Below, piece by piece: positions 6,789-30,046 of a stretch of DNA of 32,000 nucleotides. The translations under genes and the position numbers were made by a program. The notes beneath the pieces are model-generated. The model was not told the DNA's origin. It searched no databases and worked only from the letters and a program-made list of their open reading frames with translations. This DNA is from Candidatus Methylomirabilis limnetica. GTDB lineage: Bacteria; Methylomirabilota; Methylomirabilia; Methylomirabilales; Methylomirabilaceae. The DNA is taken from positions 1-32,000 of the forward strand of contig NZ_NVQC01000008.1 of the NCBI RefSeq assembly GCF_003044035.1. The letters are read 5' to 3'. Every line of letters begins with the position of its first letter. Within the stretch, counting starts at the first letter, position 1.

Positions 6789-6830
6789 CGAGCGCAATAA
6801 TGCGTATTGCGTTCATTTTCGTTGAGGGTC

Positions 6831-7050: not shown

Positions 7051-7057
7051 GGGAGGC

Positions 7058-7577: not shown

Positions 7578-7579
7578 CG

Positions 7580-12493: not shown

Positions 12494-12502
12494 CGACAGC
12501 GC

Positions 12503-12721: not shown

Positions 12722-12991
12722 GTGTAGATTACACCCCCGTAATGTGGACTCCCAAGAAGGCGGATGAGTAGTGGTGATCTAGGTGCGCAAGCGCGGCATT
12801 TCCGAAGGACGTTTGCGACAATACGGCCCGAAGAGTGTGTTTGCGGTTCGCTACCCTTTGCCAACTCGTCTTGGAGTTTCCTGAACCTTCAGGACATTCT
12901 GCCCACGCTAACCTGCACGAGTCTCGGAACTCGTGGCAGTTTTCAATCGGGACAGGTGGCCGTTTTGCGATCGGAATGGGTGGCAACTTTG
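12722..12991 (+). repeat. Dispersed repeat R1, copy C (identical to copy A)
   Basis: It is identical to 671-940 by manual comparison. It lies 223 bp upstream of mpa in the same orientation. Confidence 0.9.
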
Positions 12992-13097
12992 ATCGGAATA
13001 CGCACCCACCAGAAGGGGAGTGATATTGTAAGCATCCAGAAGCCTAAGATAGGCTATGGAAGCGGATTATTCCGGTGTGCTTTTCAGGAAAAAAGAC

Positions 13098-13128
13098 TTG
13101 ACAGCCTTATAATCGTTAGTAGTATAAA
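13098..13128 (+). promoter_or_regulatory. Sigma70-like promoter candidate for mpa
   Basis: TTGACA (13098-13103) is followed 16-19 nt later by overlapping TAGTAT/TATAAA boxes (13120-13128) in an AT-rich patch. It lies about 90 bp upstream of the mpa ATG, which has an AAGGAGG RBS. Confidence 0.4.
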
Positions 13129-13213
13129 AGTAAGATTATGAGGCGCGTTTCCCTTGGATGACGTAGCGCGACGATGAGCAGAGGGACCAAGGGCGCAAGG
13201 AGGTCAGGCGACA

Positions 13214-15037: not shown

Positions 15038-15044
15038 TGTGTGC

Positions 15045-15172
15045 GTTCAGCGATTAGCTTTCAGCTAAAACCAGAGCTTGCGAGAAACAGCTCACAATTC
15101 CTAAGATGAGGATGTGAGCAGAGATCTTGAGTTGTCTTGTCTTGCTGACCGCTGATTGCTGACGGCTGAACG
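15045..15172. repeat. Heptad-palindrome intergenic element E1 (mpa-dop spacer)
   Basis: The left arm is gTTCAGCga TTAGCtt TCAGCta (15045-15067). The right arm is GCTGAcc GCTGAtt GCTGAcg GCTGAac (15144-15171). The arms are complementary in the 5-mers and mismatched in the 2-nt spacers. Confidence 0.6.
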
Positions 15173-15193
15173 CTTACCCTGCGACGAGGACAC

Positions 15194-16678
15194 ATGGCGA
15201 TCGAAAAGATCATGGGGACCGAGACCGAGTTGGGGATCAGTGCCAGGGATCCTGCCGGTTTCGACCCCGTGTCCGGATCTAGCCTGTTGATTAATAGTCA
15301 TCGCCCCATCGCTGAGGTGAGGACGATGTGGGACTATGTGGGCGAGAATCCGCTCCTCGATGCCAGAGGATTTGAGGTAAGTGGGGATCACGAAAGGCCA
15401 AGCCAGGCGGATAATCGGACCATCAACAAGCCACTTCGAAACGGCGGCCGTCTCTATGTTGACGGGGCCCATCCCGAATACTCCACGCCGGAATGTACCA
15501 ACGCCCGAGATCTGGTCTGTTACGAGAAGGCCGGCGAGCGGATCTTCGAATTGTGCCTGGCCTCAGCCAACCTGACCCTTCCGGAGCGGCAGCGGATCGT
15601 CATCTATAAGAATAATAGCGACGGAAAAGGGAATAGTTACGGCCATCACGAGAACTACTTGATGGAGCGGCGGGTTCCCTTCGACCAGATCGTCCAGGGA
15701 TTTGCTCCTTTCTTAGTGACCCGTCTGATCTTTGCGGGCGCGGGCAAGGCCGGGGCCGAAAATGGCGCTGACCCTTGTCACTACCAGATCTCTCAACGGG
15801 CCGATTTCTTTGAAAGCTTTATCGGCCTCGACACCATGGCTAAGCGGCCAATCATCAACACCCGCGATGAGCCCCACGCCGACGAGGAGAAGTACCGCCG
15901 CCTGCACGTCATCGTCGGCGACTCCAACATGTCGGAGGTCGCGACCTACCTGAAGGTCGGGACGACCGCCATTGTCCTGGCCATGATAGAGGACGGCTTC
16001 ATCAAGCGCGACCTTACCCTCGAGGACCCCGTGCGGGCCATCAAGGAGATCTCCCACGACGTGACCTGCCGGCGCCGCGTGCGGCTGAAGCGCGGCAAGG
16101 AGTTCTCAGCCATCGAGATCCAGCGCGAGTACCTGGACCTTGCCCGCGAGTACTACCAGGACCGGGAACGGAGTCCCCAGGTGGCCGACCTCCTGGAAAG
16201 GTGGCAGCATGTCCTGGACCAGCTCGCTCTTGACCCGATGACCCTGCACCGCGAGCTCGACTGGGTCATCAAGCACGCGCTCATCACCTCCTACATCAAC
16301 CGCAAGGGCTGCTCTTTCGATGACCATCGCGTCTTCATGCTGGACCTGCAGTACCATGATCTCCGTCGGGACAAGGGACTCTACTTTACCCTCGAGCGCC
16401 AGGGATATGTTGAGCGGATCGTCACCGACGAGGAGATTCTCCTCGCCATGAAGACCCCTCCTCCGGATACCCGGGCCTACTTCCGCGGGATGTGCCTCCA
16501 GAAGTATCCCGACGAGGTCTATGGGACGAGCTGGAGTTCGGTCGTTTTTGATACCGGAGAGGCTTCGGTAAAACGAGTTCCCATGGTCGATCCGTTGAGG
16601 GGCACGCAGAAGTTGACGGCCGAGGTACTGGAACGCTCTGATACTGCCGCGGAGTTATTGGAGAACATCGCGGTCTAA
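15194..16678 (+). CDS. dop: Pup deamidase/depupylase Dop
   Basis: It is a member of the carboxylate-amine ligase family with PafA (GTETELGIS, NGGRLYVDGAHPEYSTPEC, HENY). Relative to the 452-aa paralog at 18362 it carries the roughly 35-40 aa Dop-loop-like insertion (WDYVGENPLLDARGFEVSGDHERPSQADNRTINK). Its 494 aa fit Dop rather than PafA. Confidence 0.9.
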   Translation: MAIEKIMGTETELGISARDPAGFDPVSGSSLLINSHRPIAEVRTMWDYVGENPLLDARGFEVSGDHERPSQADNRTINKPLRNGGRLYVDGAHPEYSTPECTNARDLVCYEKAGERIFELCLASANLTLPERQRIVIYKNNSDGKGNSYGHHENYLMERRVPFDQIVQGFAPFLVTRLIFAGAGKAGAENGADPCHYQISQRADFFESFIGLDTMAKRPIINTRDEPHADEEKYRRLHVIVGDSNMSEVATYLKVGTTAIVLAMIEDGFIKRDLTLEDPVRAIKEISHDVTCRRRVRLKRGKEFSAIEIQREYLDLAREYYQDRERSPQVADLLERWQHVLDQLALDPMTLHRELDWVIKHALITSYINRKGCSFDDHRVFMLDLQYHDLRRDKGLYFTLERQGYVERIVTDEEILLAMKTPPPDTRAYFRGMCLQKYPDEVYGTSWSSVVFDTGEASVKRVPMVDPLRGTQKLTAEVLERSDTAAELLENIAV

Positions 16679-16706
16679 CGCAAACGCGCTCCATTGATGG
16701 ATACTG

Positions 16707-17528
16707 ATGCCCTTACTTGCCGACTTTATGGATCCTGGATCGAGCTTTTTTGACCTGCTTCGGCAGAGTCGGTCGGATCTTCTACCACAGATGCAGATCA
16801 AGCTAGAAGGACTTTCGCAAGCCGAGAACCGGGAGCTGAAGGAGAGCCCTCACGGAACCACCATCCTGGCCCTGAAGTACCGGGATGGGGCGATCATCGC
16901 TGGAGATCGGCGGGCGACCGAGGGTTTCCAGATCTCGTCGCGACGAATCGAGAAGGTGTTCAAGGCGGATGACCACTCAGCCATCGCCATTGCGGGCGTC
17001 GCCGGTCCATGCATCGAGATGGCCAAACTGTTTGAAGTTGAACTCAGCCACTATGAAAAGCTGGAGGGTGTGACACTTTCGTTGGAGGGAAAGGCGAATA
17101 AGTTATCGCAGATGGTCAAGGCCAACCTCCCGATGGCGATGCAAGGACTGGTGGTGATCCCTATCTTTGTCGGTTACGACGTAAGAGGCGGTAAGGGCAA
17201 GATCTTCAAATACGACGTGACAGGCGGCAGGTACGAGGAAACAGATTACTATGCCACAGGCTCCGGCGGGAAAGATGCCCGTTCCACCATGAAGAAGCTC
17301 TATCGGACCGATTTGACCGAGGAGGAGGCGATAGCAGTCGGGCTGGAGGCGCTGATTGACGCAGCAGAGGAGGATGTCGGGACCGGTGGTCCGGACTTTG
17401 TTCGTGGAGTGTTTCCTACGGTCAAGCTGGCTGTCATGACGGGCCTGCAGGATGTGCCGGAGGCCCGCATCAGGGAGATCTGCCAGGCTATCATAGATCG
17501 CCGCAGGGAAGTCGAGCGAGGAGCATAA
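16707..17528 (+). CDS. prcB: 20S proteasome beta subunit PrcB (with propeptide)
   Basis: The propeptide contains SSFFDLLRQSRSDLLP, which I recall as similar to the M. tuberculosis PrcB propeptide. The predicted cleavage site and catalytic Thr1 are at HG/TTILALKYRDGAIIAGDRRAT. Confidence 0.95.
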   Translation: MPLLADFMDPGSSFFDLLRQSRSDLLPQMQIKLEGLSQAENRELKESPHGTTILALKYRDGAIIAGDRRATEGFQISSRRIEKVFKADDHSAIAIAGVAGPCIEMAKLFEVELSHYEKLEGVTLSLEGKANKLSQMVKANLPMAMQGLVVIPIFVGYDVRGGKGKIFKYDVTGGRYEETDYYATGSGGKDARSTMKKLYRTDLTEEEAIAVGLEALIDAAEEDVGTGGPDFVRGVFPTVKLAVMTGLQDVPEARIREICQAIIDRRREVERGA

Positions 17529-17532
17529 GCTG

Positions 17533-18222
17533 ATGGCGCTTCCCTATTATGTTTCGCCAGAGCAGATGATGCAGGATAAGGCGGAGTACGCCCGGAAGGG
17601 TATCGCCAAAGGGAAGTCGATTATCGTTTTAGAGTATGCTGACGGAATGCTGCTGATGGCCGAGAACCCCAGCGCCTCGCTCAACAAGATCTCCGAGATT
17701 TACGATCGGATCGCCTTTGCCGGCGCCGGGAGGTACAGCGAGTTCGAGAATCTGCGCAAGGCGGGGATTCGCTATGCGGATATGAAGGGCTTCGCCTATG
17801 ATCGGGAAGATGTAACGGCCAAGTCGCTCGCCAATGCCTACTCTCAAACCATCGGGAATGTCTTCAGCGAAGCCATGAAGCCGCTGGAGGTGGAGATCCT
17901 GGTGGTGGAGGTGGCCGATGGAGGGCTCCCCAACGAGGTGTACCGGATTGCCTTCGACGGTAGCATCGGCGACGAGAAGGGGTTTGCCGCGATCGGGGGG
18001 CAAGCCGAAGAGCTCCGGCTGCACCTGAAAGACAGCTACGAAGCAGGGCTTGATCAGAAGGCTGCTCTGAGGCTGGCTACGCAGGCGCTAGAAGCCGTGA
18101 GCAGTGCGAAGGTCAAGCCGCAGAGCCTGGAGGTGGCGGTTCTGGAGCGCAGTCGGATCGGTCGGAAGTTCCGTCGTCTTTCCCACAACGATCTCATGGC
18201 TATCCTCACGAATACCGATTAG
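17533..18222 (+). CDS. prcA: 20S proteasome alpha subunit PrcA
   Basis: MALPYYVSPEQMMQDKAEYARKGIAKGKS ... IYDRIAFAGAGRYSEFENLR is a bacterial alpha-subunit pattern. The gene starts 4 bp after prcB and has a GAGGAG RBS. Confidence 0.95.
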   Translation: MALPYYVSPEQMMQDKAEYARKGIAKGKSIIVLEYADGMLLMAENPSASLNKISEIYDRIAFAGAGRYSEFENLRKAGIRYADMKGFAYDREDVTAKSLANAYSQTIGNVFSEAMKPLEVEILVVEVADGGLPNEVYRIAFDGSIGDEKGFAAIGGQAEELRLHLKDSYEAGLDQKAALRLATQALEAVSSAKVKPQSLEVAVLERSRIGRKFRRLSHNDLMAILTNTD

Positions 18223-18361
18223 TACTTGATGGGCATCCTATACTCTACGTCATTCTCGCTCCCCTCGCGTCATTACCGAAAGTCCTCCCCCTAGCTTCTC
18301 CTGGCCAAATTCGATTGACCATCGCAGGCCCTTCCGATAGGATCGAATTGGAGCAATTGCA

Positions 18362-19720
18362 ATGCAAGAACGTATCCTTGGGCTGGAGAGCGAATACGGT
18401 CTGATCTCCTCCTCGGGCGGGGGACGGGTGAGCTTGTCGGTTGAAAGCGCCTTGGGCTATCTCTTTGAGAAGGTGGTGTCACGCCAGCGCGGGACAAATG
18501 ACTTCCTGAGAAACGGCGCGCGCCTCTATCAGGATACCGGCTGTCACCCTGAGTACGCGACCCCAGAGTGCGATAACTCGCGGGACTTGGTTATCCACGA
18601 CAAAGCGGGCGAGCGGATCGTGGAGGAGTTGCTACTGGGTGCCGAACAGAAGCTCCGCGAAAACGGCATCTACTGCGATATCTACATCTTCAAGAATAAT
18701 ACCGACTCGGTCGGGAATACGTACGGCTGTCACGAGAACTACCTGGTGCAGCGCGATGTGAGCTTCCACAAGCTCGCAGAGCAATTGATCCCATTCTTCG
18801 TCACGCGCCAGGTATTCGCGGGCGCAGGTAAGGTACTCCGAACGCGAATGGGGAACCACTACTATATCTCACAGCGGGCGCAGCACATCTATCAGGAGAT
18901 ATCGGGTGCGACGACCAGTTCACGCGGTATCATCAACACCCGCGATGAGCCCCACGCCGACGAGGAGAAGTACCGCCGCCTGCACGTCATCGTCGGCGAC
19001 TCCAACATGTCGGAGGTCGCGACCTACCTGAAGGTCGGGACGACCGCCATTGTCCTGGCCATGATAGAGGACGGCTTCATCAAGCGCGACCTTACCCTCG
19101 AGGACCCCGTGCGGGCCATCAAGGAGATCTCCCACGACGTGACCTGCCGGCGCCGCGTGCGGCTCAAGCGTGGCAAGGAGTTCTCGGCCGTCGAGATCCA
19201 GCGCGAGTACCTGGACCTTGCCCGCGAGTACTACCAGGACCGGGAACGGAGTCCCCAGGTGACCGACCTCCTGGAAAGGTGGCAGTATGTCCTGGACCAG
19301 CTCGCTCTTGACCCGATGACGCTGCACCGCGAGCTCGACTGGGTCATCAAGCACGCGCTCATCACCTCCTATATCAACCGCAAGGGCTGCTCTTTCGATG
19401 ACCAGCGCGTCTTCATGCTGGACCTGCAGTACCATGACATTAAGCGAACCCGCGGACTGTACTACCTCATGCTGCAGGGTGGGCTGATCGATCGGGTGAT
19501 CACAGAGGGTGAGATCGAGACGGCCATGACGACGCCGCCGCAGACGACCAGGGCCAAGGTGCGAAGCGATTTTATCAAATACGCGACAGAGAGGAACAAG
19601 TCATATGATGTGGGCTGGAGTTACCTGAAGCTGAACGATCGGTATCAGCGTACCATCCTATGTAAGGATCCGTTCAAGGCCTGGGATCCGCGTGTGGATG
19701 AGCTGATCGGTTTGTCGTAA
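18362..19720 (+). CDS. pafA: Pup-protein ligase PafA
   Basis: It is 452 aa and lacks the Dop loop. Motifs are LGLESEYGL, NGARLYQDTGCHPEYATPEC and CHENYLV. It sits after prcBA, as in actinobacterial loci. Confidence 0.9.
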   Translation: MQERILGLESEYGLISSSGGGRVSLSVESALGYLFEKVVSRQRGTNDFLRNGARLYQDTGCHPEYATPECDNSRDLVIHDKAGERIVEELLLGAEQKLRENGIYCDIYIFKNNTDSVGNTYGCHENYLVQRDVSFHKLAEQLIPFFVTRQVFAGAGKVLRTRMGNHYYISQRAQHIYQEISGATTSSRGIINTRDEPHADEEKYRRLHVIVGDSNMSEVATYLKVGTTAIVLAMIEDGFIKRDLTLEDPVRAIKEISHDVTCRRRVRLKRGKEFSAVEIQREYLDLAREYYQDRERSPQVTDLLERWQYVLDQLALDPMTLHRELDWVIKHALITSYINRKGCSFDDQRVFMLDLQYHDIKRTRGLYYLMLQGGLIDRVITEGEIETAMTTPPQTTRAKVRSDFIKYATERNKSYDVGWSYLKLNDRYQRTILCKDPFKAWDPRVDELIGLS

Positions 19721-19737
19721 TGGTCATGTATGGCAGG

Positions 19738-19806
19738 CTTAGCTTTCAGCGACCAGCCCTTCAGCACGTTTCGGTATGGCTGTTGATAGCTGATAGCTAA
19801 CAGCCG
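19738..19806. repeat. Heptad-palindrome intergenic element E2 (pafA-pepA spacer)
   Basis: The left arm is TTAGCtt TCAGCga CCAGCcc TTCAGC. The right arm is GGCTGtt GATAGCT GATAGCT AACAGCC. Confidence 0.5.
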
Positions 19807-19891
19807 CATTACGAGAGGGAGGGGTGGTAGCCGCCATTCCTCCAGTATGTGTGACTCTGACGTGGGCGTGGCATTTGAAAGGAGTGATCGA

Positions 19892-21826: not shown

Positions 21827-22116
21827 AACGCATCCCTCCTTTTGGATAACCAAGCGTTAACGTGGGGTTATGATGAAAGAACCAGATCTTTCCGCCGGCA
21901 ACGTCGATCCAGGAACATCTGGCTATCCTTATGCCCTGGTCAGTAGCTCAATCTGGCGAGCGGACAATCGTGACTCGACGTATGTATACGATAGATGCCG
22001 GCGGTACACAAGCAGAAAAATACGCCGACCTGCCAAGGCGCATGAGAGCGCAATGGGGTATTTCGTTGCGTTTAGGCGCTCTTATCGGGTCTCGCTCTCG
22101 AGCTGATCTTGCACAC

Positions 22117-23325
22117 ATGGATCGACCAGGCGAGAGAGAACCCATAATCCTGTCAGGCTCAACCCATCGGGGGCGAGAGAGCTCTATCGACGAAACGATT
22201 TCCAGCTTTAATTTCTTCGTTGCCTCCCTTGCCAATTTTTTCTTTTTCGCCAGTCTCAATGCCTTCAGCTTACTTCCCCTTTACATCAAGACCCTCGGGG
22301 GGACCGAATCGCAGATCGGTTGGATCATGGGGAGCTACAGTCTGACGGCTATTCTTTGGCAGCCGCTGGCAGGCGCCTTCGTTGATCGCTTCGGGCGCAA
22401 GCGATTCCTCCTGCTGGGATCGGCATTAGGGTTGCTGGCCTCGGTCGGCTTTGCCTTCTCGACGCAAATGGATGCGCGATTTATTTTCTTTCGCATCCTG
22501 CAAGGTATCGGGTACTCCACCTTCTATATCGCCAATCTGACCCTGGTGGCTGAAATCGTTCCGTCGCACCGTCGCGGGGAGGCGGTGGGGCTTTTCGGCA
22601 TCTCCGGACTCATTACGATCGCTCTCTCTCCCGCCCTCGGGGAGATCGTGATCCATCGTGCGGGGTACTCGGCTTTCTTCTTAGCCGCCGCTGTGGCCGC
22701 GGCGGGCTGTCTTCTGACAAGCCTGGCGTTCCGTAATCTCTCAGCGACGCCCCTCAAAGCTGTCTCTTCCGGCCCCTCTTTCCTGATCCCATCAGCGCGT
22801 ATCCTTCCTCCAATTCTCCTCACGCTGGTGTTCGGTTTGGTCTCTGGGACGGTGTTCGTATTCCTACCGACCTATGCGATGCAGGCTGGGTTGTCGCGTA
22901 TCGGTGGGTTCTACGTCGCGTACAGCGTGGCTGCGATCGGCATCCGGTTGACCTGTGGCAGACTGTCTGATAGATGGGGGCGTCAGCGCGTCATCCTTCC
23001 CTCCCTACTGCTCATGGGATCCGGCACGCTAGGCCTTGTCTGGCTCGTCTCTCCTGTTGGTCTGCTGCTGGTTGGGACGCTAACGGGAATGGCTCACGGC
23101 TTACTTTTCCCAGCCCTGAGTGCCTACGCAATCGACCTCGCAGACTCGGAGGAGCGCGGACGCTCCATTGGCGCGTTCACTACCGCAATGTTGTTGGGCA
23201 ACGCCCTGGCGTCGTTCATATTCGGAATGGTCGCAGAGCAGTTCGGCTACCCGATGATCTACCTCTTGACTTCGGGAATTGTTGCGATTACGTATTTTGT
23301 ATTTCTTCGTTTTCACAGGGCGTAG
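22117..23325 (+). CDS. MFS transporter (start uncertain; the ORF opens at 21931)
   Basis: About 12 hydrophobic segments are present, with an MFS motif-A-like GAFVDRFGRKR after TM2 and a second-half repeat LSDRWGRQR. The region upstream of 22117 is non-hydrophobic and Arg-rich. Confidence 0.8.
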   Translation: MDRPGEREPIILSGSTHRGRESSIDETISSFNFFVASLANFFFFASLNAFSLLPLYIKTLGGTESQIGWIMGSYSLTAILWQPLAGAFVDRFGRKRFLLLGSALGLLASVGFAFSTQMDARFIFFRILQGIGYSTFYIANLTLVAEIVPSHRRGEAVGLFGISGLITIALSPALGEIVIHRAGYSAFFLAAAVAAAGCLLTSLAFRNLSATPLKAVSSGPSFLIPSARILPPILLTLVFGLVSGTVFVFLPTYAMQAGLSRIGGFYVAYSVAAIGIRLTCGRLSDRWGRQRVILPSLLLMGSGTLGLVWLVSPVGLLLVGTLTGMAHGLLFPALSAYAIDLADSEERGRSIGAFTTAMLLGNALASFIFGMVAEQFGYPMIYLLTSGIVAITYFVFLRFHRA

Positions 23326-23525: not shown

Positions 23526-24437
23526 ATGGGTTTCATTAGCTCATTATTTAAGTGTGGTGGGAAGTCCGGCAGGAAGCTCATCGAGGCCTCTAAATCAGGA
23601 GGCACCAAAACAGTCAAGAGCCTGTTAGCTGCAAGCGCTGATACGAACGCGAGGGATAAACATTACTGGACGGCCTTGATGCATGCGTCTTGGCATGGGC
23701 ATGTCGGGGTTACAGAGCTGTTACTCAATCAAGGCGCCGAGGTGAACGCGACGGATAAAGATGGCTGGACCGCCCTGATGCGGGCGTCTTGGCATGGCCA
23801 TACCGAGGTTGCAGATCTACTGCTCAAAAAAGGCGCCGAGGTGAACGTGGGCGAAAAACATGGCTGGACCGCCCTGATGCGTTCGTCTGGGCATGGGCGT
23901 ATCGGGGTTACAGAGCTACTGCTCAATCAAGGCGCCGAGGTGAACGCGAGGGACAAGCATGGCTGGACCGCCCTGATGCATGCGTCTGGAAATGGGCGTA
24001 CCGGGGTTGCAGAGGTGTTACTCAATCAAGGCGCCGAGGTGAACGCGACGGATAAAGATGGCTGGACGGCCCTGATGCGTGCGTCTTGGCATGGCCATAC
24101 CGAGGTTGCAGATCTACTGCTCAAAAAAGGCGCCGAGGTGAACGTGAGGAATAATAGTGGCGGGACGGCCCTGATGCGTGCGTCTGAGAAAAGGCATTCC
24201 GAGACTGTAGGGTTGCTGCTCAGTCAAGGCGCTGAGGTGAACGCGAGGGACGAGCATGGCTGGACGGCCCTGATGCGTGCGTCCGAGAAAGGGCATTTCA
24301 GGGTTACGGTCATGCTGCTCAATCAAGGCGCTGAGGTGAACGTGAAGGATGATACCGGTGGGACGGCCCTGCTGCGTGCGTCTGGGAATAGGCATTCTAC
24401 GGTTGCTGAACTGCTGAAGAGGCACGGGGCGTCCTAA
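23526..24437 (+). CDS. Ankyrin-repeat protein, array member 1 (303 aa, about 8-9 ANK repeats)
   Basis: The 33-aa repeat DGWTALMxASxxGHxxVxELLLNQGAEVNAxD recurs throughout. The N-terminus is MGFISSLFKCGGKSG. Confidence 0.9.
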   Translation: MGFISSLFKCGGKSGRKLIEASKSGGTKTVKSLLAASADTNARDKHYWTALMHASWHGHVGVTELLLNQGAEVNATDKDGWTALMRASWHGHTEVADLLLKKGAEVNVGEKHGWTALMRSSGHGRIGVTELLLNQGAEVNARDKHGWTALMHASGNGRTGVAEVLLNQGAEVNATDKDGWTALMRASWHGHTEVADLLLKKGAEVNVRNNSGGTALMRASEKRHSETVGLLLSQGAEVNARDEHGWTALMRASEKGHFRVTVMLLNQGAEVNVKDDTGGTALLRASGNRHSTVAELLKRHGAS

Positions 24438-24627
24438 GAACACGACGCCTGGTTTCGCGCATTGAACTTTCTAAATCGGGCGATGCTCCTGACTCTCGCG
24501 GGCCCTATCTAGAGGGTCTCAAGGTGTGGAACGGTTGCCTCGAATCCGGTGTTCTGGCAAGGATCGGCTGAAGCTGCTTACTGGACGAGATGGACGCACT
24601 GGGGTGTAGTATTTAAAAGGAGGCTAT

Positions 24628-25533
24628 ATGGGTTTCTTAGGCTCATTATTTGGGGGTGGTGGGAAACTTGGGCTCATCGAGGCGTCCAAATCTGGAGACA
24701 CCGAAAAAGTCAAGAGCCTGTTAGCTGAAGGCACTGACGTGAACACAAGGGATAGGGAGGGCTGGACAGCCTTGATGCATGCCTCCAGGCACGGGCACGC
24801 CGGGGTTGTAGAGCTGCTGCTCAATCAAGACGCCGATGTGAACGTGATTGACAACAATGGCTGGACGGCCTTGATGCATACCTCCTGGAATGGGCATACA
24901 GGGATTGCGGGGTTGCTGCTTCATAAGGGCGCTGATGTGAACTTAGGCGATAAACATGGCTGGACGGCCATGATGTATGCGTCCGAGAATGGGCACATCG
25001 GGGTTATAGAGCTGCTGCTCAAGAACGGCGCTGACGTGAACGCCAGGACTAATAATGGCGGGACGCTCCTGATCATCGCGTCTACAGAAGGGCATACCGA
25101 GATTGTCGATCTGCTGCTTAAGAACGGCGCTGAGGTGAACGCGAAGGCGAATGATGGCGGGACAGCTCTGATACGTACGTCTGCAGAAGGGCATACCGGG
25201 ATTGTCGATCTGCTGCTTAAGAAAGGCGCTGAGGTGAACGCGAAGGATAAAGAGGGCTGGACGGCCCTGATGCGTACGGCTTCGGAAGGGTATATCGGAA
25301 TTGTGAAGCTGCTGCTTAATGGCGGCGCTGACGTAAACGCAACGGCCAATGATGGCGGGACGGCCATGATGCATGCCTCCTGGTATGGGCGTTTCGTGGT
25401 CGTGGAACTGCTGCTCAATAACGGCGCCGAGGTGAGCGCGAAGGATCGAAGGGATTGGACGGCTGAGTCGTATGCGGCTGGGAATGGGCATCAAAACATT
25501 GTTGATATGCTGGAGAGCCGTAAGGCACGCTAG
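24628..25533 (+). CDS. Ankyrin-repeat protein, array member 2 (301 aa)
   Basis: It has the same 33-aa repeat. The N-terminus is MGFLGSLFGGGGKLG, and AAAGGAGG lies upstream. Confidence 0.9.
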   Translation: MGFLGSLFGGGGKLGLIEASKSGDTEKVKSLLAEGTDVNTRDREGWTALMHASRHGHAGVVELLLNQDADVNVIDNNGWTALMHTSWNGHTGIAGLLLHKGADVNLGDKHGWTAMMYASENGHIGVIELLLKNGADVNARTNNGGTLLIIASTEGHTEIVDLLLKNGAEVNAKANDGGTALIRTSAEGHTGIVDLLLKKGAEVNAKDKEGWTALMRTASEGYIGIVKLLLNGGADVNATANDGGTAMMHASWYGRFVVVELLLNNGAEVSAKDRRDWTAESYAAGNGHQNIVDMLESRKAR

Positions 25534-25723
25534 GGGCAAGACGTCGGTGTCACCCATGACAATGCCTCAATTGGGCGATGCGCGCATCCCGCGCAGGCTC
25601 CATCGATAAGGTCTCAAGACGTGAGGCGGCCGTCTCTGATCCGGTGTCCTGGTATGGGATCGACCGCAGCCGTTTGCTGGACGAGATGGACGGGCTGGGA
25701 TGCGGGAGGTGAAAGGAGGTCGT

Positions 25724-26536
25724 ATGAGTTTCCTTAGCTCATTATTTGAGGGCGGCGGGAAGGGTGGTCACAAGCTTATCGAGGCGTCTAAATCTGGAGA
25801 CACCGAAACAGTCAAGAGCCTGCTCGCCGAAGGCGCTGACGTGAACGCAAGGAATAAAGATGGCGTCACGGCCTTAATGCAAGCGTCCGAGCATGGGCAC
25901 GCCGGGGTTACAGAGCTGTTGCTCGCTCATGGCGCTGACGTGAACGTAAGTAATAAAGATGGCGGCACGGCCCTGTTGCTAGCGTCAGAGCATGGGCACG
26001 CCAAGGTTGCAGAACTGTTGCTAGCTAAAGGCGTTGACGTGAATGCGCGGGATAAAGATGGCTGGACAGCCCTGATTCTTACGTCCTGGCGTGGGCACGC
26101 CAAGGTTGCTGAGTTGCTGCTCAATCACGGCGCTGACGTGAACGCGAAGACTACGAATAGAGTCACTGCTCTGATGCGTGCGTCCGAGAAAGGGCACGCC
26201 GACGTTGTGGGGGTGCTGCTAAATAAAGGTGTTGATGTGGAGGCCAGAGCTGGTGATGGCGCAACTGCCCTCCTACGCGCATCCTGGTATGGGCACGCCG
26301 GGATTGTGGGGTTGCTGCTCAATCAGGGCGCTGATGTGAACGCGAGGGACAATAGCAACGGGACCGCCCTGATACGTGCGACTTGGCATGAGCATACCAG
26401 AGTTGCAGAGCTGCTGATCAACAAAGGCATTGATGTGAATGCGGAAGATAATATGCATGCAACAGCCTGGATGTATGCGTCGCGCAATAAGCTTTCCAAG
26501 ATTGCCAAACTACTGGAGAGACACGGGGCGCACTAA
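25724..26536 (+). CDS. Ankyrin-repeat protein, array member 3 (270 aa, one repeat shorter)
   Basis: It has the same repeat. The N-terminus is MSFLSSLFEGGGKGG. I chose the ATG at 25724 by homology with its paralogs and because AAAGGAGG lies 6 nt upstream; the ORF itself opens at 25700. Confidence 0.88.
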   Translation: MSFLSSLFEGGGKGGHKLIEASKSGDTETVKSLLAEGADVNARNKDGVTALMQASEHGHAGVTELLLAHGADVNVSNKDGGTALLLASEHGHAKVAELLLAKGVDVNARDKDGWTALILTSWRGHAKVAELLLNHGADVNAKTTNRVTALMRASEKGHADVVGVLLNKGVDVEARAGDGATALLRASWYGHAGIVGLLLNQGADVNARDNSNGTALIRATWHEHTRVAELLINKGIDVNAEDNMHATAWMYASRNKLSKIAKLLERHGAH

Positions 26537-26729
26537 GAACAAGACCCCGGGCTTCCCAAATAATGAAATCTCTAATTGGGCTATGCGCTTTACTCTCGCA
26601 GGCCTTATCTAGATGGCCTCAAGGTGTAGGACGGCCGCCTCGAATCCGTCGTCCTGGCAATGGATCGGCCTCGACCGCTGTGCTGGACGAGATGGACGGG
26701 CTGGGGTATGAGGTCTAAAAGGAGGTTGT

Positions 26730-27641
26730 ATGGGTTTCCTTAGCTCATTATTTGGGGGTGGTGGGAAACTTGGCAGCAAGCTCATCGAGGCGTCCAAATC
26801 TGGAGACACCGAAAAAGTCAAGAGCCTGTTAGCTGAAGGCGCTGATGCGAACGCGATAGATAGGGATGGCTGGACAGCCCTGATACATGCGTCGTGGGTC
26901 GGACATCTCGCGGTTGTCGAAGCGCTGCTCGACCGTGGCGCTGATGTGAACGCGCAGGATAAGAATGGGGGGACGGCGCTGATACGGGCGGCTTGGAAAG
27001 AACACGCTCGAGTGGTGGAGATGCTTCTTAGTAAAGGTGCTCAAGTTGACGTAAAGGATAAAGACAGCTTTAGCGCGCTGATGCGTGCGGCATGGAATGG
27101 CCGTTTCGGAGTGATAGAGATGTTACTCAATAACGGGGCGGTTGTGGATGCGAGGGACAAATTTGGTTGTACAGCCCTCATACGCGCGTCGTTGAACGGA
27201 CATACCAGGATTGCAGATCTCCTGCTCAATCGAGGCGCGGACCTGAACGCGCTGGATCAGCATGGCGGGACGGCGCTGATACATGCCGCTGCGCATGGAC
27301 ATACCGGGGTTGCAGATCTCCTGATCAATCGAGGCGCGGATCTGAACGTACGAGATCAATACAACAGGACGGCGCTGATACGGGCCGCTGCGCATGGACA
27401 TACCGGGGTTGCAGAGCTCCTGCTAAATAGAGGCACGGATCAGAACGCGCGAGATCAACATGGCGGGACGGCGCTGATACATGCCGCTGCGCATGGGCAT
27501 ATCGGGGTTGCAGAGCTCCTGCTCAATCGAGGTGCGGACCTGAACATGTGGGATTCCGATGGCGGGACGGCCTTGGAGCGCGCAACTTTGAATGGGCACG
27601 CTAAGGTGTTGGAACTGTTGAAGAAGTACGGGGCACAGTAA
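26730..27641 (+). CDS. Ankyrin-repeat protein, array member 4 (303 aa)
   Basis: It has the same repeat. The N-terminus is MGFLSSLFGGGGKLG. Confidence 0.9.
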   Translation: MGFLSSLFGGGGKLGSKLIEASKSGDTEKVKSLLAEGADANAIDRDGWTALIHASWVGHLAVVEALLDRGADVNAQDKNGGTALIRAAWKEHARVVEMLLSKGAQVDVKDKDSFSALMRAAWNGRFGVIEMLLNNGAVVDARDKFGCTALIRASLNGHTRIADLLLNRGADLNALDQHGGTALIHAAAHGHTGVADLLINRGADLNVRDQYNRTALIRAAAHGHTGVAELLLNRGTDQNARDQHGGTALIHAAAHGHIGVAELLLNRGADLNMWDSDGGTALERATLNGHAKVLELLKKYGAQ

Positions 27642-27650
27642 GATTAAAAG

Positions 27651-27774
27651 CAGCGATTGGCTATCAGCGGTCAAGGGATAGGAGTATAGGCTGAAGACTG
27701 AAGGATCCTCACAATCTTCCGCCTTCAGTCTATTTACCTTCGGCCTTCAGCTTGGTGCTGACTGCTGCCAGCTA
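27651..27774. repeat. Heptad-palindrome intergenic element E3 (between ank4 and ank5)
   Basis: The left arm is CAGCga TTGGCta TCAGCgg TCAAG. A central second palindrome is ggctgaagactgaagg ... ccttcagtct ... ccttcggccttcagc. The right arm is GCTGAct GCTGcca GCT. Confidence 0.5.
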
Positions 27775-27795
27775 TTTTCTAAGAAGGGAGGGTGC

Positions 27796-28707
27796 ATGGG
27801 TTTCCTTGGCTCACTATTTGAGGGTGGTGGGGGGCTTGGTCGTAAGCTCATCGAGGCGTCCAAATCTGGAGCCAGCGGAAAAGTCAAAAGTCTGTTAGCT
27901 GAAGGCGCAGATGCAAGCGCGATGGATCAAGAGGGCTGGACCGCCCTGATGCATGCGTCCTGGCATGGGCATACCGAGGTTGCGGCGCTGCTGCTCAATA
28001 ATGGCGCTGCTGTGGGCGCCATGGCTAATAATGGCGGGACCGCCCTGATACATGCGTCGTGGCATGGGCATGCCGGAATCGTAGAGCTGCTGCTCAATAA
28101 GGGCGCTGATGTGAACACGAACGATCAGGATGGCTTTACGGCGCTTCTGCATGCATCTGAGAAAGGGCATACCGAGGTTGCAGAGCTGCTGCTCAATAAG
28201 GGCGCTGATGCCCACGCCATGGCTAATAATGGCGGGACGGTCCTGATGTTCGCGTCCGGGGAAGGGCATACCAGGATTGCAGAGCTGCTGATCAAACAAG
28301 GTGCCGACGTGAATGCAAGCAATAAAAATGGCTGGACCGCCCTGATGCGTGCGGCTGAGGGTGGGCACACCAAGGCTGTAGAGCTGCTGCTAAAACATGG
28401 CGCTGACGTGAATGCAAGCAATAAAAATGGTGAGACGGTCCTGATGCGTGCGTCCACGAATGGGCGTCCCAGGGTTGCAGAGCTGCTGCTCGATAAAGGC
28501 GCCGACGTGAATGTGAGGGATATTAATAGCGTAACGGCCCTGATGTATGCGTCTGCGGGTGGGAATGCCGGGGTAGTAGAGATACTGCTGAGTAAAGGCG
28601 CTGATATGAACGTCACGTCTAGCGATGGTGGGACGGCCCTCATGTATGCAACGAGGAATGGGTGTGACAGCGTTGTTGAACTGCTGGAGAAGCACGCGAA
28701 GCACTGA
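27796..28707 (+). CDS. Ankyrin-repeat protein, array member 5 (303 aa)
   Basis: It has the same repeat. The N-terminus is MGFLGSLFEGGGGLG. Confidence 0.9.
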   Translation: MGFLGSLFEGGGGLGRKLIEASKSGASGKVKSLLAEGADASAMDQEGWTALMHASWHGHTEVAALLLNNGAAVGAMANNGGTALIHASWHGHAGIVELLLNKGADVNTNDQDGFTALLHASEKGHTEVAELLLNKGADAHAMANNGGTVLMFASGEGHTRIAELLIKQGADVNASNKNGWTALMRAAEGGHTKAVELLLKHGADVNASNKNGETVLMRASTNGRPRVAELLLDKGADVNVRDINSVTALMYASAGGNAGVVEILLSKGADMNVTSSDGGTALMYATRNGCDSVVELLEKHAKH

Positions 28708-28867
28708 GAAAAGGTCTATTGCGTCCGTCGCGTCGATTGCGTTTTTTGCGTTAAACGGTGCGAGGATCATCCCTTTCGGTAAACGCAATCAGGATGGATG
28801 GCACCACATGCGGCTGCTTGTCGCATAAGATGAACGACCTGAGGTGTAAGATCTGAAAGGAGGTACG

Positions 28868-29782
28868 ATGGGTCTCTTTGGCTCATTATTTGGTGGGGGA
28901 GGTGAGAAGCCTGCCGATAGGCTCATTGAGGCGTCGAAGTCCGGAGACATTGAAAAAGTCAAGCGCCTGCTGGCTGAAGGCGCTGATGTGAACGCGAGAG
29001 ATGCAGATGGCTGGACGGCCCTGATACATGCGTCCTGGCACGGGTATACTCCGGTTGTGGAGCTGCTCCTGAATAAAGGCGCCGATGTGCATGTAAGGGA
29101 TAATAAAGGCTCTTTGGTGTTGATATATGCGTCTTGGAGAGGGCATGCCCCGATTGTCGAGCTGCTGCTGAATAAAGGGGCTGATGTGTATGTGAGGAAT
29201 GAAGATGGCGGGATAGCCCTGATGCATGCGTCCAAGCACGGGTATGCCGGGGTTGTGGAACTGCTGCTGAATAAAGGGGCTGATGTCAACGCGAGGGATC
29301 GCGAGGGCTGGACTTCCCTGATGCGAGCGTCCTGGTACGAGCATGCTCCGGTTGTGGAGCTGCTGCTGAATAAAGGCGCTGATGCAAACACAAGGGATCA
29401 GAATGGCGGAACACCCCTGATGCATGCGTCCAAGCACGGGTATGCCGGGGTTGTGGAACTGCTACTGAATAAAGGTGCCGATGTGAATGCCAAGGCGGGT
29501 AATGGCGCTACCGCCCTGGTGTATGCATCTGAGTATGGGTATGCCGGGGTTGTGGAACTGCTACTGAATAAAGGTGCCGATGTGAATGCCAAGGCGGGTA
29601 ATGGCGCGACCGCCCTGATGCTGGCGTCTGGGAATGGGCATGCCGGGAGCGTAGAGGCACTTCTCACTCATGGCGCTGACGTGAAGGCGGAGGATCATAA
29701 TCACCAGACGGCCTGGATGTACGCCTCTACTCACGGGCATACTAAGGTGGCTGAACTGTTGGGGACGCACGAGGCGCACTAA
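28868..29782 (+). CDS. Ankyrin-repeat protein, array member 6 (304 aa)
   Basis: It has the same repeat. The N-terminus is MGLFGSLFGGGGEKP, and GAAAGGAGG lies upstream. Confidence 0.9.
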   Translation: MGLFGSLFGGGGEKPADRLIEASKSGDIEKVKRLLAEGADVNARDADGWTALIHASWHGYTPVVELLLNKGADVHVRDNKGSLVLIYASWRGHAPIVELLLNKGADVYVRNEDGGIALMHASKHGYAGVVELLLNKGADVNARDREGWTSLMRASWYEHAPVVELLLNKGADANTRDQNGGTPLMHASKHGYAGVVELLLNKGADVNAKAGNGATALVYASEYGYAGVVELLLNKGADVNAKAGNGATALMLASGNGHAGSVEALLTHGADVKAEDHNHQTAWMYASTHGHTKVAELLGTHEAH

Positions 29783-29795
29783 AATTGAAAGAAAC

Positions 29796-29880
29796 GTTCA
29801 GCTATCAGCTATCAGCCCTTACCGGTACGTCTCCTGTTTGTACCTGAATCCGACACCTGACCGCTGACTGCTGCGAGCTA
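29796..29880. repeat. Heptad-palindrome intergenic element E4 (after ank6)
   Basis: The left arm is gTTCAGCta TCAGCta TCAGCcc (29796-29817). The right arm is CTGAcc GCTGAct GCTGcga GCTac (29857-29880). Confidence 0.6.
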
Positions 29881-30046
29881 CTTTCGGCTCCTCTTCCAAA
29901 GGTGCCAGAGCGATTGAAGGTCTGCACAGCAGTTATAGAGGTTGCCGATATCGCCCCAGAACGTCCGGTAGCCATTGGCTAAATACCTCGTGAGGGTCTG
30001 GACAGAGAAAGTACCAGGGTTGGAGGAGGGGTAAGTGAAAGCGGAA

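What the first reader, a model, noticed from the sequence alone, without database searches (positions are those of the whole stretch)
23526..29782. Six tandem paralogous ankyrin-repeat genes sharing a conserved MGF(L/I)xSLFxGGGK N-terminal leader
Gene starts at 23526, 24628, 25724, 26730, 27796 and 28868 give periods of about 1.0-1.1 kb. Each unit encodes a 270-304 aa protein made almost entirely of 33-aa ANK repeats (GWTALMxASxxGH..V.ELLL..GA.VN). All six begin with a near-invariant short hydrophobic peptide followed by a Gly-rich linker and LIEASKSGDTEKVKSLLAEGADVNA. That leader is not part of an ANK repeat, and it has been kept through six duplications while the repeat surfaces diverged. 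This suggests a targeting function: an amphipathic membrane anchor, a secretion signal, or a eukaryote-like MGxxxS N-myristoylation site as used by some injected effectors. Two caveats apply. The residue after Gly2 is Phe in 4 of 6 copies, which the classical NMT consensus disfavours, and copy 3 has Ser2. A diversifying array of binding scaffolds with a common address tag resembles an effector or immunity-type repertoire. It is unusual next to housekeeping proteasome genes.
Basis: partly seen in the sequence, partly recalled or inferred. Interest (0 to 1): 0.66.

Follow-up and report, generated by a model that had tools for sequence, protein, structure and literature searches.

The report
Ankyrin gene array with MinD-like tag
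A groundwater NC10 (Methylomirabilota) bacterium keeps six different ankyrin-repeat binding proteins in a row, each starting with the same 12-residue floppy hydrophobic tail that closely resembles the short membrane-sticking tags of the bacterial proteins MinD and MreB, so they are most likely membrane-tethered adaptor proteins and not injected effectors.

Summary
Six + strand genes sit at exactly the stated starts. Each encodes 270-304 aa of ankyrin (ANK) repeats and has a strong Shine-Dalgarno site 4-6 nt before the ATG. LIEASKSGDTEKVKSLLAEGADVNA is an ordinary N-terminal capping ANK repeat.

The array and its leader recur in 43 unique proteins from at least 10 related NC10 contigs, always between an MFS transporter gene and a LysR gene. 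More distant NC10 genomes have the proteasome genes but no array there.

The leader core GFLSSLFGG is identical at 7 of 9 positions to the E. coli MinD membrane-targeting sequence (K)GFLKRLFGG. It also parallels an MreB N-terminal helix. Positions 3, 4, 7 and 8 are hydrophobic in 43/43. AlphaFold leaves residues 1-11 disordered.

- Only 4/43 fit the myristoylation pattern.
- Sec, Tat and lipoprotein signal features are absent.
- Binding-face positions differ between paralogs (24% identity) but are conserved between orthologs (80-88%, dN/dS about 0.3). That indicates stable specialisation, not an arms race.
- Leader codons are frozen in rare AT-rich forms, which is only partly explained.

Best reading: weak, avidity-dependent membrane tethering of six specialised ANK adaptors (confidence about 0.45, untested). 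This is a new variant of known kinds, of moderate interest.

The parts
23526..24437 (+). ANK copy 1 (303 aa): leader MGFISSLFKCGG, N-cap, 7 internal repeats, C-cap
   Evidence: ORF; Pfam Ank_2 9e-81; ortholog L086_8710 85% identical
24628..25533 (+). ANK copy 2 (301 aa): leader MGFLGSLFGGGG
   Evidence: ortholog L086_10001 85%
25724..26536 (+). ANK copy 3 (270 aa, one repeat fewer): leader MSFLSSLFEGGG, with Ser2 in place of Gly2
   Evidence: SD site directly before 25724; public gene call of 270 aa; ortholog L086_11102 93% identical and has Gly2
26730..27641 (+). ANK copy 4 (303 aa): consensus leader MGFLSSLFGGGG; the copy modelled with AlphaFold2
   Evidence: AlphaFold2 mean pLDDT 95.1, 18 helices = 9 repeats, residues 1-11 pLDDT<50; orthologs 93/92/82/77% identical in L086/L082/L089/L085
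27796..28707 (+). ANK copy 5 (303 aa): leader MGFLGSLFEGGG; fastest-diverging orthogroup
   Evidence: best matches elsewhere are only 64-73% identical (65% to the collinear L086 copy), with dS about 0.6 against L086
28868..29782 (+). ANK copy 6 (304 aa): leader MGLFGSLFGGGG; the only window copy that fits the classical myristoylation pattern
   Evidence: Pfam Ank_2 2e-68; ortholog L086_14242 94%
26730..26765 (+). Leader-coding segment of copy 4 (codons 1-12). The equivalent 36 nt start at 23526, 24628, 25724, 27796 and 28868. It is written in frozen rare AT-rich codons (GGT TTC CTT AGC TCA TTA TTT)
   Evidence: Across family members: TCA 37/38 Ser, TTA 33/40 Leu, TTT 43/43 Phe, GGT 38/41 Gly. 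GC of codons 2-8 is 36% vs 57-59% elsewhere
26718..26725 (+). Shine-Dalgarno site AAAGGAGG of copy 4; equivalent sites lie 4-6 nt before each of the six ATGs
24438..24627 (+). Type A spacer (about 190 nt), homologous to spacers 25534-25723 and 26537-26729 and to spacers in L001/L081/L082/L086; presumably promoter/5'-UTR
   Evidence: Alignments; RNAalifold gives little covariation (4/41 pairs, covariation term -1.44); no Rfam hit
27642..27795 (+). Type B spacer carrying a dispersed palindromic intergenic element (arms CAGCnATnAGCTnTCAGC / GCTGAnnGCTGAnnGCTG); also found after copy 6 (29783-29900)

Best explanation
Each gene encodes a cytoplasmic nine-repeat (copy 3: eight-repeat) ankyrin solenoid. 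Its concave binding face is specific to that paralog. Its first 12 residues (MGFLSSLF-GGGG) form a flexible tail that acts as a short, weak membrane-targeting sequence of the MinD/MreB type. On contact with the inner face of the cytoplasmic membrane, residues 2-9 are proposed to fold into about two helical turns, with Phe3, Leu4, Leu7 and Phe8 inserted into the lipid. The Gly4 hinge would leave the ANK solenoid free to bind its partner. A single tag of this size binds weakly, so stable membrane association would need avidity: several tagged ANKs on one multivalent partner, oligomerisation, or high local copy number. The six paralogs would then be a fixed set of membrane-proximal adaptors, each recruiting a different conserved partner. 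Shown here: the anatomy, the conservation pattern, the sequence match to the MinD tag, the disorder of the tail, and purifying selection on each paralog's binding face. Inferred: membrane binding itself, cytoplasmic location, the avidity requirement, and the adaptor role. The partners are unknown.
For: (1) The consensus leader (M)GFLSSLFGG shares 7 of 9 residues, in the same N-to-C order, with the experimentally used E. coli MinD membrane-targeting sequence KGFLKRLFGG (PMC5471200). (2) In 43 unique family members, positions 3, 4, 7 and 8 are hydrophobic in 43/43 and F8 is invariant. Positions 5 and 6 are small or polar in 43/43. This i, i+1, i+4, i+5 pattern puts all four hydrophobic residues on one helical face. 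The substitutions seen are conservative (F/L/V, L/F/I, L/I/F/M) and arise through varied codons at positions 3 and 4, which indicates protein-level selection. (3) The leader is followed by a Gly-rich hinge and Lys13. AlphaFold2 leaves residues 1-11 unstructured (pLDDT<50) and undocked, while the ANK body has mean pLDDT 95. (4) An independent analogue: a Nitrospirota MreB in L025 starts MGLIGSILGWFS ahead of the MreB domain. The nine-residue N-terminal helix of E. coli MreB is necessary for membrane binding and suffices as a double copy (PMC3163269). (5) One copy of the MinD or MreB tag is too weak alone and needs dimerisation or polymerisation. (6) The leader has lower non-synonymous divergence than the gene body. 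Paralog pN is about 0.07-0.26 (mostly 0.07-0.20) against 0.25-0.28 for the whole gene. Leader identity is 77% between paralogs and 94% between orthologs. (7) The alternatives fail: myristoylation pattern 4/43; no signal-peptide or transmembrane features (N-terminal 19-mer Kyte-Doolittle mean at most 0.95, longest hydrophobic run 5).
Against: There is no experimental evidence. The polar face is Gly/Ser, not Lys/Arg as in MinD. As a result the Eisenberg hydrophobic moment is unremarkable (0.24 vs 0.55 for MinD, and 31% of shuffles reach it), and there is no electrostatic attraction to anionic lipid. Only 2 K/R occur in residues 1-8 across 43 proteins, and Glu9 is common. Eight residues is at the lower limit for a membrane helix. 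The MinD tag is C-terminal and this one is N-terminal. Part of the conservation is at nucleotide level (frozen rare codons; leader dS about 0 between orthologs), so peptide function is not the only constraint. I could not test whether the tag occurs on non-ANK proteins (searches were uninformative).
Confidence: 0.45

Rival explanations
1. The leader is a short linear motif that binds a protein, not lipid. Candidates are a common docking groove on a shared partner, the ANK groove of a neighbouring paralog (chain formation), or a hydrophobic disordered N-terminal degron or initiation site for an AAA+ protease such as ClpXP, Lon, FtsH or the adjacent Mpa-proteasome. Under the degron version all six adaptors would share one turnover control.
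For: The tail is disordered, hydrophobic, tethered by a Gly hinge and conserved at protein level. Its amphipathicity is weak for a lipid binder. The array lies 2.1 kb downstream of Mpa-Dop-PrcBA-PafA and an M17 aminopeptidase. Gly2 would permit removal of Met1 (established methionine-aminopeptidase specificity, from my own knowledge).
Against: No known degron or docking consensus was matched. AlphaFold2 does not dock the tail on its own ANK surface. Proteasome adjacency is confined to this lineage, and more distant NC10 genomes have the proteasome genes without the array. The near-identity to a validated lipid-binding tag is more specific than any protein-motif resemblance.
Confidence: 0.2
2. 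The conservation is mainly at RNA/DNA level. SD plus ATG plus AT-rich codons 2-8 would form a translation-initiation or regulatory cassette copied with each duplication, possibly homogenised by gene conversion, and the encoded peptide has little function of its own.
For: Rare codons are frozen: TCA 37/38 (normal usage 3-8%), TTA 33/40 (3-4%), GGT 38/41 (8-18%), TTT 43/43. GC is 36% against 57-59%. Leader dS is about 0 between orthologs and 0.13 between paralogs, against 0.5-1.0 elsewhere. Native starts are on average 2.4 kcal/mol less structured than synonymous recodings (Wilcoxon p=1e-8). RNAalifold predicts an SD/codon 2-4 hairpin. L081 copies share linker residues, which suggests local gene conversion.
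Against: The amino-acid changes that do occur are all conservative, and they use different codons at positions 3 and 4 (TTC/CTC/GTC/TTA; CTT/TTT/TTC/ATT). That is the signature of selection on the peptide. The Gly hinge is conserved as protein but uses mixed Gly codons. SD accessibility is no different from recoded controls (0.343 vs 0.341, p=0.68). The folding-energy effect is modest (mean z 0.88). A pure RNA constraint would not reproduce the MinD peptide.
Confidence: 0.15
3. The proteins are effectors delivered into a eukaryotic cell (a protist grazer or host), where host N-myristoyltransferase acylates Gly2 of the MGxxxS motif and sends them to host membranes. This is how some type III effectors work.
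For: MGxxxS is present in most members: G2 in 41/43 and S6 in 38/43. ANK repeats are typical eukaryote-like effector domains (from my own knowledge). Copy 6 and three relatives fit the classical pattern.
Against: Phe follows Gly2 in 36/43, a residue the classical pattern excludes, and only 4/43 pass. Gly2 is replaced by Ser (window copy 3) or Arg (L089). The invariant Leu7-Phe8 is unexplained by this model. No secretion-system gene lies in the window or in 10 kb flanks of related loci. The sources are groundwater-type metagenomes, and one sample has about 656x coverage. Binding faces are under purifying selection with collinear orthologs, unlike arms-race effectors.
Confidence: 0.05
4. The leader is an unconventional export or lipidation signal, and the ANK proteins act outside the cytoplasm, as many related bacterial ANK proteins do.
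For: More distant ANK relatives of the same GWTALMxAS type carry classical Sec or lipoprotein signal peptides directly before the N-cap, at the position the leader occupies here (L092, L093, L104, L115/L119).
Against: The leader has no basic n-region, an h-region of at most 5 residues, no cleavage or lipobox motif and no twin arginine. The ANK fold starts at residue 13. No known export signal is this short.
Confidence: 0.05

Closest known systems
E. coli MinD C-terminal membrane-targeting sequence (KGFLKRLFGG)
   Same: The core G-F-L-x-x-L-F-G-G is identical at 7 of 9 positions. It sits at a chain terminus on a flexible tether. The expected behaviour is a short lipid-inserting helix whose single-copy affinity is weak.
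   Different: It is at the N-terminus here, not the C-terminus. The two polar-face residues are Ser/Gly, not Lys/Arg, so it is less amphipathic and uncharged. It is attached to ANK scaffolds, not to a dimerising ATPase. No common descent is implied.
[quoted passage not shown]
   Same: About nine residues at the extreme N-terminus, ahead of the folded domain. L025 MreB MGLIGSILGWFS parallels MGLFGSLFGGGG. Membrane binding by this class of tag works through avidity.
   Different: MreB gains avidity by polymerising. No oligomerisation is known or predicted for these ANK proteins.
Consensus-type ankyrin repeat proteins (designed DARPins; ankyrin-R/B membrane-binding domain)
   Same: Canonical N-cap, 33-residue repeats and C-cap. 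TM-score 0.90-0.94 to a 12-repeat DARPin and to AnkB/AnkR repeats. Variable positions 2, 3, 5, 13, 14 and 33 coincide with the designed-ankyrin binding face.
   Different: TALM replaces the eukaryotic TPLH motif. The face is Trp-rich (12% Trp). There is an extra 12-residue leader. The genes are bacterial and arranged in a tandem array.
Bacterial periplasmic or lipoprotein ANK proteins with Sec signal peptides (e.g. those encoded in L092, L093, L104, L115)
   Same: The same GWTALMxAS repeat type and the same N-cap directly after the N-terminal extension.
   Different: Those carry full-length signal peptides or lipoboxes. The NC10 family has only the 8-residue hydrophobic tag plus Gly4.
Eukaryote-like ANK effector repertoires of intracellular bacteria and N-myristoylated type III effectors (from my own knowledge, not tested here)
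   Same: Multiple ANK paralogs per genome, and an MGxxxS-like N-terminus.
   Different: No secretion system in the neighbourhood, free-living NC10 lineage, purifying selection, and the myristoylation pattern is failed by 39/43.

Membership tests
Ankyrin repeat proteins (Pfam Ank / Ank_2) | Tandem 33-residue repeats scoring above the curated Pfam thresholds | tested here: met
   Ank_2 267 and 227 bits (cut-off 27.3) for copies 1 and 6. All six align throughout.
Ankyrin repeat proteins (Pfam Ank / Ank_2) | Helix-turn-helix solenoid fold with N- and C-terminal capping repeats | tested here: met
   AlphaFold2 mean pLDDT 95.1, with 18 helices in 9 pairs. Foldseek TM 0.90-0.94 to DARPin and AnkB/AnkR. 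DARPin N-caps align from residue 11.
MinD/MreB-type short membrane-targeting sequence | Terminal peptide of about 8-12 residues with hydrophobic residues at i, i+1, i+4, i+5 on one helical face | tested here: met
   Positions 3, 4, 7 and 8 are hydrophobic in 43/43. 7/9 identity to GFLKRLFGG.
MinD/MreB-type short membrane-targeting sequence | Clearly amphipathic, with a basic polar face that attracts anionic lipid | tested here: not met
   The polar face is Gly/Ser. muH is 0.24 vs 0.55 for MinD, and 31% of shuffles reach it. Only 2 K/R occur in residues 1-8 over 43 proteins.
MinD/MreB-type short membrane-targeting sequence | Unstructured in solution and joined to the folded domain by a flexible tether | tested here: met
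   Residues 1-11 have pLDDT<50. The Gly-rich hinge 9-12 is conserved (G at positions 10-12 in 32-35 of 43).
MinD/MreB-type short membrane-targeting sequence | Demonstrated binding to membranes or liposomes | not testable with these tools
   Needs localisation or liposome assays.
N-myristoylated proteins/effectors | Gly2 obligatory, plus the pattern G-{EDRKHPFYW}-x(2)-[STAGCN]-{P} (PROSITE PS00008, recalled from memory) | tested here: not met
   Gly2 in 41/43 (Ser and Arg exceptions). 36/43 have the excluded Phe. 4/43 pass.
N-myristoylated proteins/effectors | Access to a eukaryotic N-myristoyltransferase (a delivery system and a host) | tested here: inconclusive
   No secretion-system genes in the window or in the flanks of related loci. 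The whole genome was not examined.
Sec / Tat / lipoprotein signal peptides | Basic n-region, hydrophobic h-region of at least 7-10 residues, and a cleavage site, lipobox or twin-arginine motif | tested here: not met
   Longest hydrophobic run is 5. N-terminal 19-mer Kyte-Doolittle mean is at most 0.95. No RR and no conserved Cys. The fold starts at residue 13.
Diversifying (arms-race) effector or immunity repertoire | Ongoing positive or relaxed selection focused on the binding surface, with rapid copy turnover | tested here: not met
   Ortholog dN/dS is 0.33 on the face vs 0.32 on the framework (window vs L086), and 0.19 vs 0.23 (vs L089/L085). Orthology is collinear at 85-94% for 5 of 6 copies. 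Some turnover exists: copy 5 diverges, and copy content differs in L081/L082.
PADLOC defence candidates (PDC-M72A, 'Ankyrin', MzaA) | Full-length match to the defence protein model plus its partner genes | tested here: inconclusive
   Matches cover only the ANK-repeat portions of the models (e.g. profile positions 200-364 of 392). No partner genes were identified.

The most novel reading that the evidence does not exclude
The 12-residue tag is a dedicated address label. It would place a fixed set of six (4-7 in relatives) specificity-diverged ANK adaptors on the cytoplasmic membrane of this NC10 lineage, forming a bacterial analogue of the eukaryotic ankyrin membrane skeleton that organises distinct membrane protein complexes. 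The frozen rare codons would add a shared translational control. A more exotic alternative, not excluded, is that at least the MGLFGS-type copies are acylated effectors aimed at protist grazers.
Probability: 0.12. Interest if true: 0.7.

Novelty: new variant of a known kind. Interest (0 to 1): 0.42.

Why it matters
Bacterial ankyrin-repeat proteins are mostly discussed as secreted, eukaryote-directed effectors. Here a free-living NC10 lineage maintains, under purifying selection, an ordered set of different ANK scaffolds that all carry a MinD/MreB-like terminal tag. If the tag does tether them to the membrane, this would be a simple modular way for a bacterium to recruit several different partners to the membrane. 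It would also supply a naturally occurring minimal N-terminal membrane tag that lacks the usual basic face. The prediction is directly testable with leader-GFP fusions and liposome assays. The frozen rare codons at the start of every copy are a separate small puzzle about translation-initiation constraints.

Tried and rejected
(1) The HMM search of the 1.84-billion representative library with the N-terminal profile was swamped by giant multi-repeat ANK proteins, because the N-cap part of the profile matches every repeat. It gave no information on the leader.

(2) Leader-only searches:
- A 52-aa concatenate of four leader variants found 114 word candidates, none at E<=10.
- The native 40-aa N-terminus returned a single 45-aa fragment.
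So I could not determine whether the tag occurs on non-ANK proteins.

(3) The cluster look-up of the ANK proteins found that the exact sequences are not indexed.

(4) My first face-versus-framework analysis used a repeat register shifted by one residue. I detected this because the 'face' composition came out as Gly/Thr/Asp. Those numbers are withdrawn and replaced.

(5) Hydrophobic moment as a test of amphipathicity was not significant.

(6) A structured 5'-UTR RNA in the type A spacers is not established: no Rfam hit, no tRNA-like gene, and little covariation.

(7) SD sequestration or exposure as the reason for the frozen codons is rejected: there is no difference from recoded controls.

(8) A functional link to the Pup-proteasome operon is not supported by synteny outside the lineage.

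(9) The lipobox idea for copy 1 (LFKCGG) is rejected, because the Cys is absent from its orthologs.

Full report
**Observation.** The six ORFs exist at exactly the coordinates given:

| Copy | Coordinates | Length (aa) |
|---|---|---|
| 1 | 23526-24437 | 303 |
| 2 | 24628-25533 | 301 |
| 3 | 25724-26536 | 270 |
| 4 | 26730-27641 | 303 |
| 5 | 27796-28707 | 303 |
| 6 | 28868-29782 | 304 |

All are on the + strand. They are ANK proteins by a wide margin and are 52-58% identical to one another. Every ATG is preceded by an AAAGGAGG-type Shine-Dalgarno site 4-6 nt upstream. The reading frame is closed by a stop 6-9 codons upstream in most family members. Independent public gene calls on a 106-kb contig carrying the same genes give the same six lengths. 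The shared N-terminus is therefore not a start-codon artefact.

**Leader boundary.** It is in fact a normal N-terminal capping repeat. Designed-ankyrin N-caps align with the query from residue 11. AlphaFold2 (mean pLDDT 95.1, pTM 0.89) places the first helix at residues 13-24 and builds nine helix pairs. Residues 1-11 are below pLDDT 50 and undocked. The non-ANK part is only MGFLSSLF plus a GGGG hinge.

**Organism and context.**
- Upstream lie Mpa/ARC (13214-15037), Dop, PrcB, PrcA, PafA (18362-19720), an M17 aminopeptidase and an MFS transporter (21931-23325).
- Downstream, on the opposite strand, lie a LysR regulator and a glycosyltransferase.
- PafA is 93% identical to that of a groundwater Methylomirabilota (NC10) MAG and about 80% identical to other NC10 genomes.
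- In the close clade (PafA at least 92%: L001, L081, L082, L086, L089) the ANK array occupies the same slot, between the MFS gene and LysR.
- In the more distant NC10 genomes (L002-L009), PafA and PepA are present but no ANK array follows.

The array is thus a lineage-specific insertion. Its closeness to the proteasome genes is conserved synteny within one lineage, not evidence of a functional link.

**The family.** A metagenome scan seeded with the N-terminal alignment, plus regex and ORF inspection, recovered 43 unique leader-bearing ANK proteins. They sit in arrays of four to six copies. The leader profile is:

| Position | Residues (count of 43) |
|---|---|
| 1 | M 43 |
| 2 | G 41, S 1, R 1 |
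| 3 | F 36, L 6, V 1 |
| 4 | L 21, F 18, I 4 |
| 5 | G 22, S 20, R 1 |
| 6 | S 38, A 3, Q 2 |
| 7 | L 40, with I, F, M once each |
| 8 | F 43 |
| 9 | E or G in 38 |
| 10-12 | G in 32-35 |
| 13 | K 30 |

The hinge is nine residues long in 35/43. More distant ANK relatives of the same GWTALMxAS type either carry full Sec or lipoprotein signal peptides at this position or have no extension. None has this leader.

**What the leader resembles.**
- The consensus (M)GFLSSLFGG shares 7 of 9 residues, in the same order, with the E. coli MinD membrane-targeting sequence KGFLKRLFGG (PMC5471200). The two differences are the polar-face residues (K,R to S/G,S).
- The hydrophobic positions 3, 4, 7 and 8 are hydrophobic in all 43 proteins, and positions 5 and 6 are always small or polar. 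In a helix this places all four hydrophobic side chains on one face.
- My motif scan also picked up a Nitrospirota MreB (Pfam MreB_Mbl 3e-150, domain from residue 13). Its N-terminal extension MGLIGSILGWFS parallels MGLFGSLFGGGG of copy 6.
- The nine-residue N-terminal helix of E. coli MreB is necessary for membrane binding and sufficient as a double copy (PMC3163269).
- A single E. coli MinD tag is likewise too weak alone and works after dimerisation (PMC8155659).

By analogy, a monomeric ANK with one such tag would bind the membrane only weakly, unless it is clustered by a multivalent partner. That step is inference.

**Weaknesses of the membrane reading.** Because the polar face is Gly/Ser, the Eisenberg hydrophobic moment is small (0.24, against 0.55 for MinD), and 31% of shuffles reach it. 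There is almost no positive charge in residues 1-8, and Glu9 is common. The tag is therefore a short hydrophobic patch more than a classical cationic amphipathic helix. Nothing here demonstrates lipid binding.

**Alternatives tested.**
- *N-myristoylation.* Only 4/43 N-termini satisfy the classical pattern, 36/43 have the excluded Phe after Gly2, and Gly2 itself is replaced twice.
- *Signal peptide or transmembrane segment.* The longest hydrophobic run is five residues, the N-terminal 19-mer Kyte-Doolittle mean is at most 0.95, and there is no RR or conserved Cys.
- *Defence-system membership.* PADLOC matches cover only the ANK-repeat parts of the models.

**Selection on the repeats.** In the 33-residue repeat frame, between-paralog variability peaks at positions 2, 3, 5, 13, 14 and 33 (0.74-0.83). 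These are the canonical binding-face positions. Variability is also high at 10, 17, 18 and 26, while the framework positions are conserved.

My first pooled analysis used a register shifted by one and is withdrawn. With the correct register:

| Comparison | Face identity | Framework identity | dN/dS face vs framework |
|---|---|---|---|
| Paralogs within the window | 23.7% | 59.0% (Fisher p=9e-64) | 0.71 vs 0.40 |
| Orthologs, window vs L086 | 80.1% (87.8% without copy 5) | 87.3% (90.9% without copy 5) | 0.33 vs 0.32 |
| Orthologs, window vs L089/L085 | 64.7% | 76.2% | 0.19 vs 0.23 |

Orthology is collinear: 85, 85, 93, 93, 65 and 94% identity to L086, against 93-97% for the flanking housekeeping proteins. 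Paralog dS is 0.4-1.3.

So the duplications are old. The binding faces diverged long ago, and each is now maintained. This is the signature of stable specialisation for different partners, not an arms-race repertoire. There is some turnover: copy 5 is divergent, and L081 and L082 differ in copy content.

**An unexpected nucleotide-level constraint.** The leader codons are frozen in rare, AT-rich forms:

| Residue | Codon, count | Normal usage |
|---|---|---|
| Ser6 | TCA 37/38 | 3-8% |
| Leu7 | TTA 33/40 | 3-4% |
| Phe8 | TTT 43/43 | not rare (37-56%) |
| Gly2 | GGT 38/41 | 8-18% |

Codons 2-8 are 36% GC against 57-59% elsewhere. Leader dS is about 0 between orthologs and 0.13 between paralogs. 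Native initiation regions are on average 2.4 kcal/mol less structured than synonymous recodings. SD accessibility is unchanged, however (0.343 vs 0.341, p=0.68), and the SD/codon 2-4 hairpin predicted by RNAalifold has no covariation support.

The constraint is therefore only partly explained. It means peptide function is not the sole reason for the conservation. Even so, positions 3 and 4 vary in codon and residue while always staying hydrophobic, and the Gly hinge uses mixed codons. Selection on the peptide is therefore also evident.

**Spacers.** Each gene has its own spacer. Type A (about 190 nt; 24438-24627, 25534-25723, 26537-26729) is conserved among paralogs and genomes, but has no Rfam match and little covariation. 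Type B (27642-27795, and after copy 6) carries a palindromic element that also occurs in the Mpa-Dop and PafA-PepA gaps. It is a dispersed intergenic repeat, not part of the ANK system.

**Verdict.**
A targeting-type tag is plausible, and of the options offered the membrane anchor fits best (about 0.45). The rivals are a protein-binding or degron motif (0.2), a mainly RNA-level cassette (0.15), myristoylation (0.05) and unconventional export (0.05).
- The ANK bodies are ordinary consensus-type solenoids.
- The combination of a conserved tandem set of specialised ANK scaffolds with a MinD/MreB-like N-terminal tag did not turn up in my literature searches. It rates as a new variant of known kinds, of moderate interest.

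Noticed in passing
window 23529-23549, 24631-24651, 25727-25747, 26733-26753, 27799-27819, 28871-28891 (codons 2-8 of each ANK gene): The leader codons are frozen in rare AT-rich forms across 43 family members: TCA 37/38, TTA 33/40, GGT 38/41 (plus TTT 43/43, which is not rare). GC is 36% against 57-59% elsewhere. Lower local RNA folding explains this only partly, and SD accessibility not at all.
   Followed up: partly
window 15048-15168, 19782-19806, 27651-27790, 29792-29873: A dispersed palindromic intergenic element (arms CAGCnATnAGCTnTCAGC / GCTGAnnGCTGAnnGCTG) lies just after stop codons in the Mpa-Dop, PafA-PepA and ANK4-ANK5 gaps and after ANK6. There are 13 motif matches against 1.1 expected. 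It is REP/MITE-like, and could act as a terminator or mRNA stabiliser.
   Followed up: partly
window 12494-19846: Mpa, Dop, PrcB, PrcA and PafA are all present, but no ORF ending in GGQ or GGE (Pup) was found anywhere in the window. The dop stop (16678) and prcB start (16707) leave no room at the usual pup position. The 125-aa ORF 12764-13141 upstream of mpa has no Pfam match.
   Followed up: partly
window 1428-9160: The upstream region looks like a defence island. It has a DUF4268 protein (matches PADLOC PDC-S11), a metallophosphatase plus a 1172-aa AAA_27/SMC-like ATPase (SbcCD-like, weak LmuB match), a GajA-N-terminal-like fragment (6800-7351), and a 526-aa Fic-domain protein (7580-9160) that matches the candidate defence protein PDC-S24 over its full length (E=2e-186).
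   Followed up: no
L025 13689-14714: A Nitrospirota MreB carries the N-terminal extension MGLIGSILGWFS, nearly the same pattern as the ANK leader MGLFGSLFGGGG. It is an independent example of this kind of short N-terminal hydrophobic tag.
   Followed up: yes
window 25724-26536; L001 5989, L084 196, L085 353, L089 7116: The copy-3 orthogroup varies in repeat number (270 aa in the window, L081, L082 and L086; 237 aa in L001, L084, L085 and L089). In the 237-aa forms the hinge is acidic (ESDEKP/ASDEEP) instead of Gly-rich.
   Followed up: no
L091 10001-10129: A truncated family member begins ...FEGGGKPAEKLIEASKSG, with no start codon or hydrophobic leader in frame. It is probably a pseudogene or an assembly break.
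   Followed up: no
window ANK genes, repeat positions 5 and 13: The binding face is unusually Trp-rich: W is 12% of face residues, and the consensus is GWTALMxASWHGH. This hints at aromatic-mediated recognition of the unknown partners.
   Followed up: no
L081 4222-10900: Copies within L081 share linker residues (KLGNK in several paralogs) that differ from those of their orthologs in other genomes. This suggests local gene conversion or recent duplication at the 5' ends.
   Followed up: no
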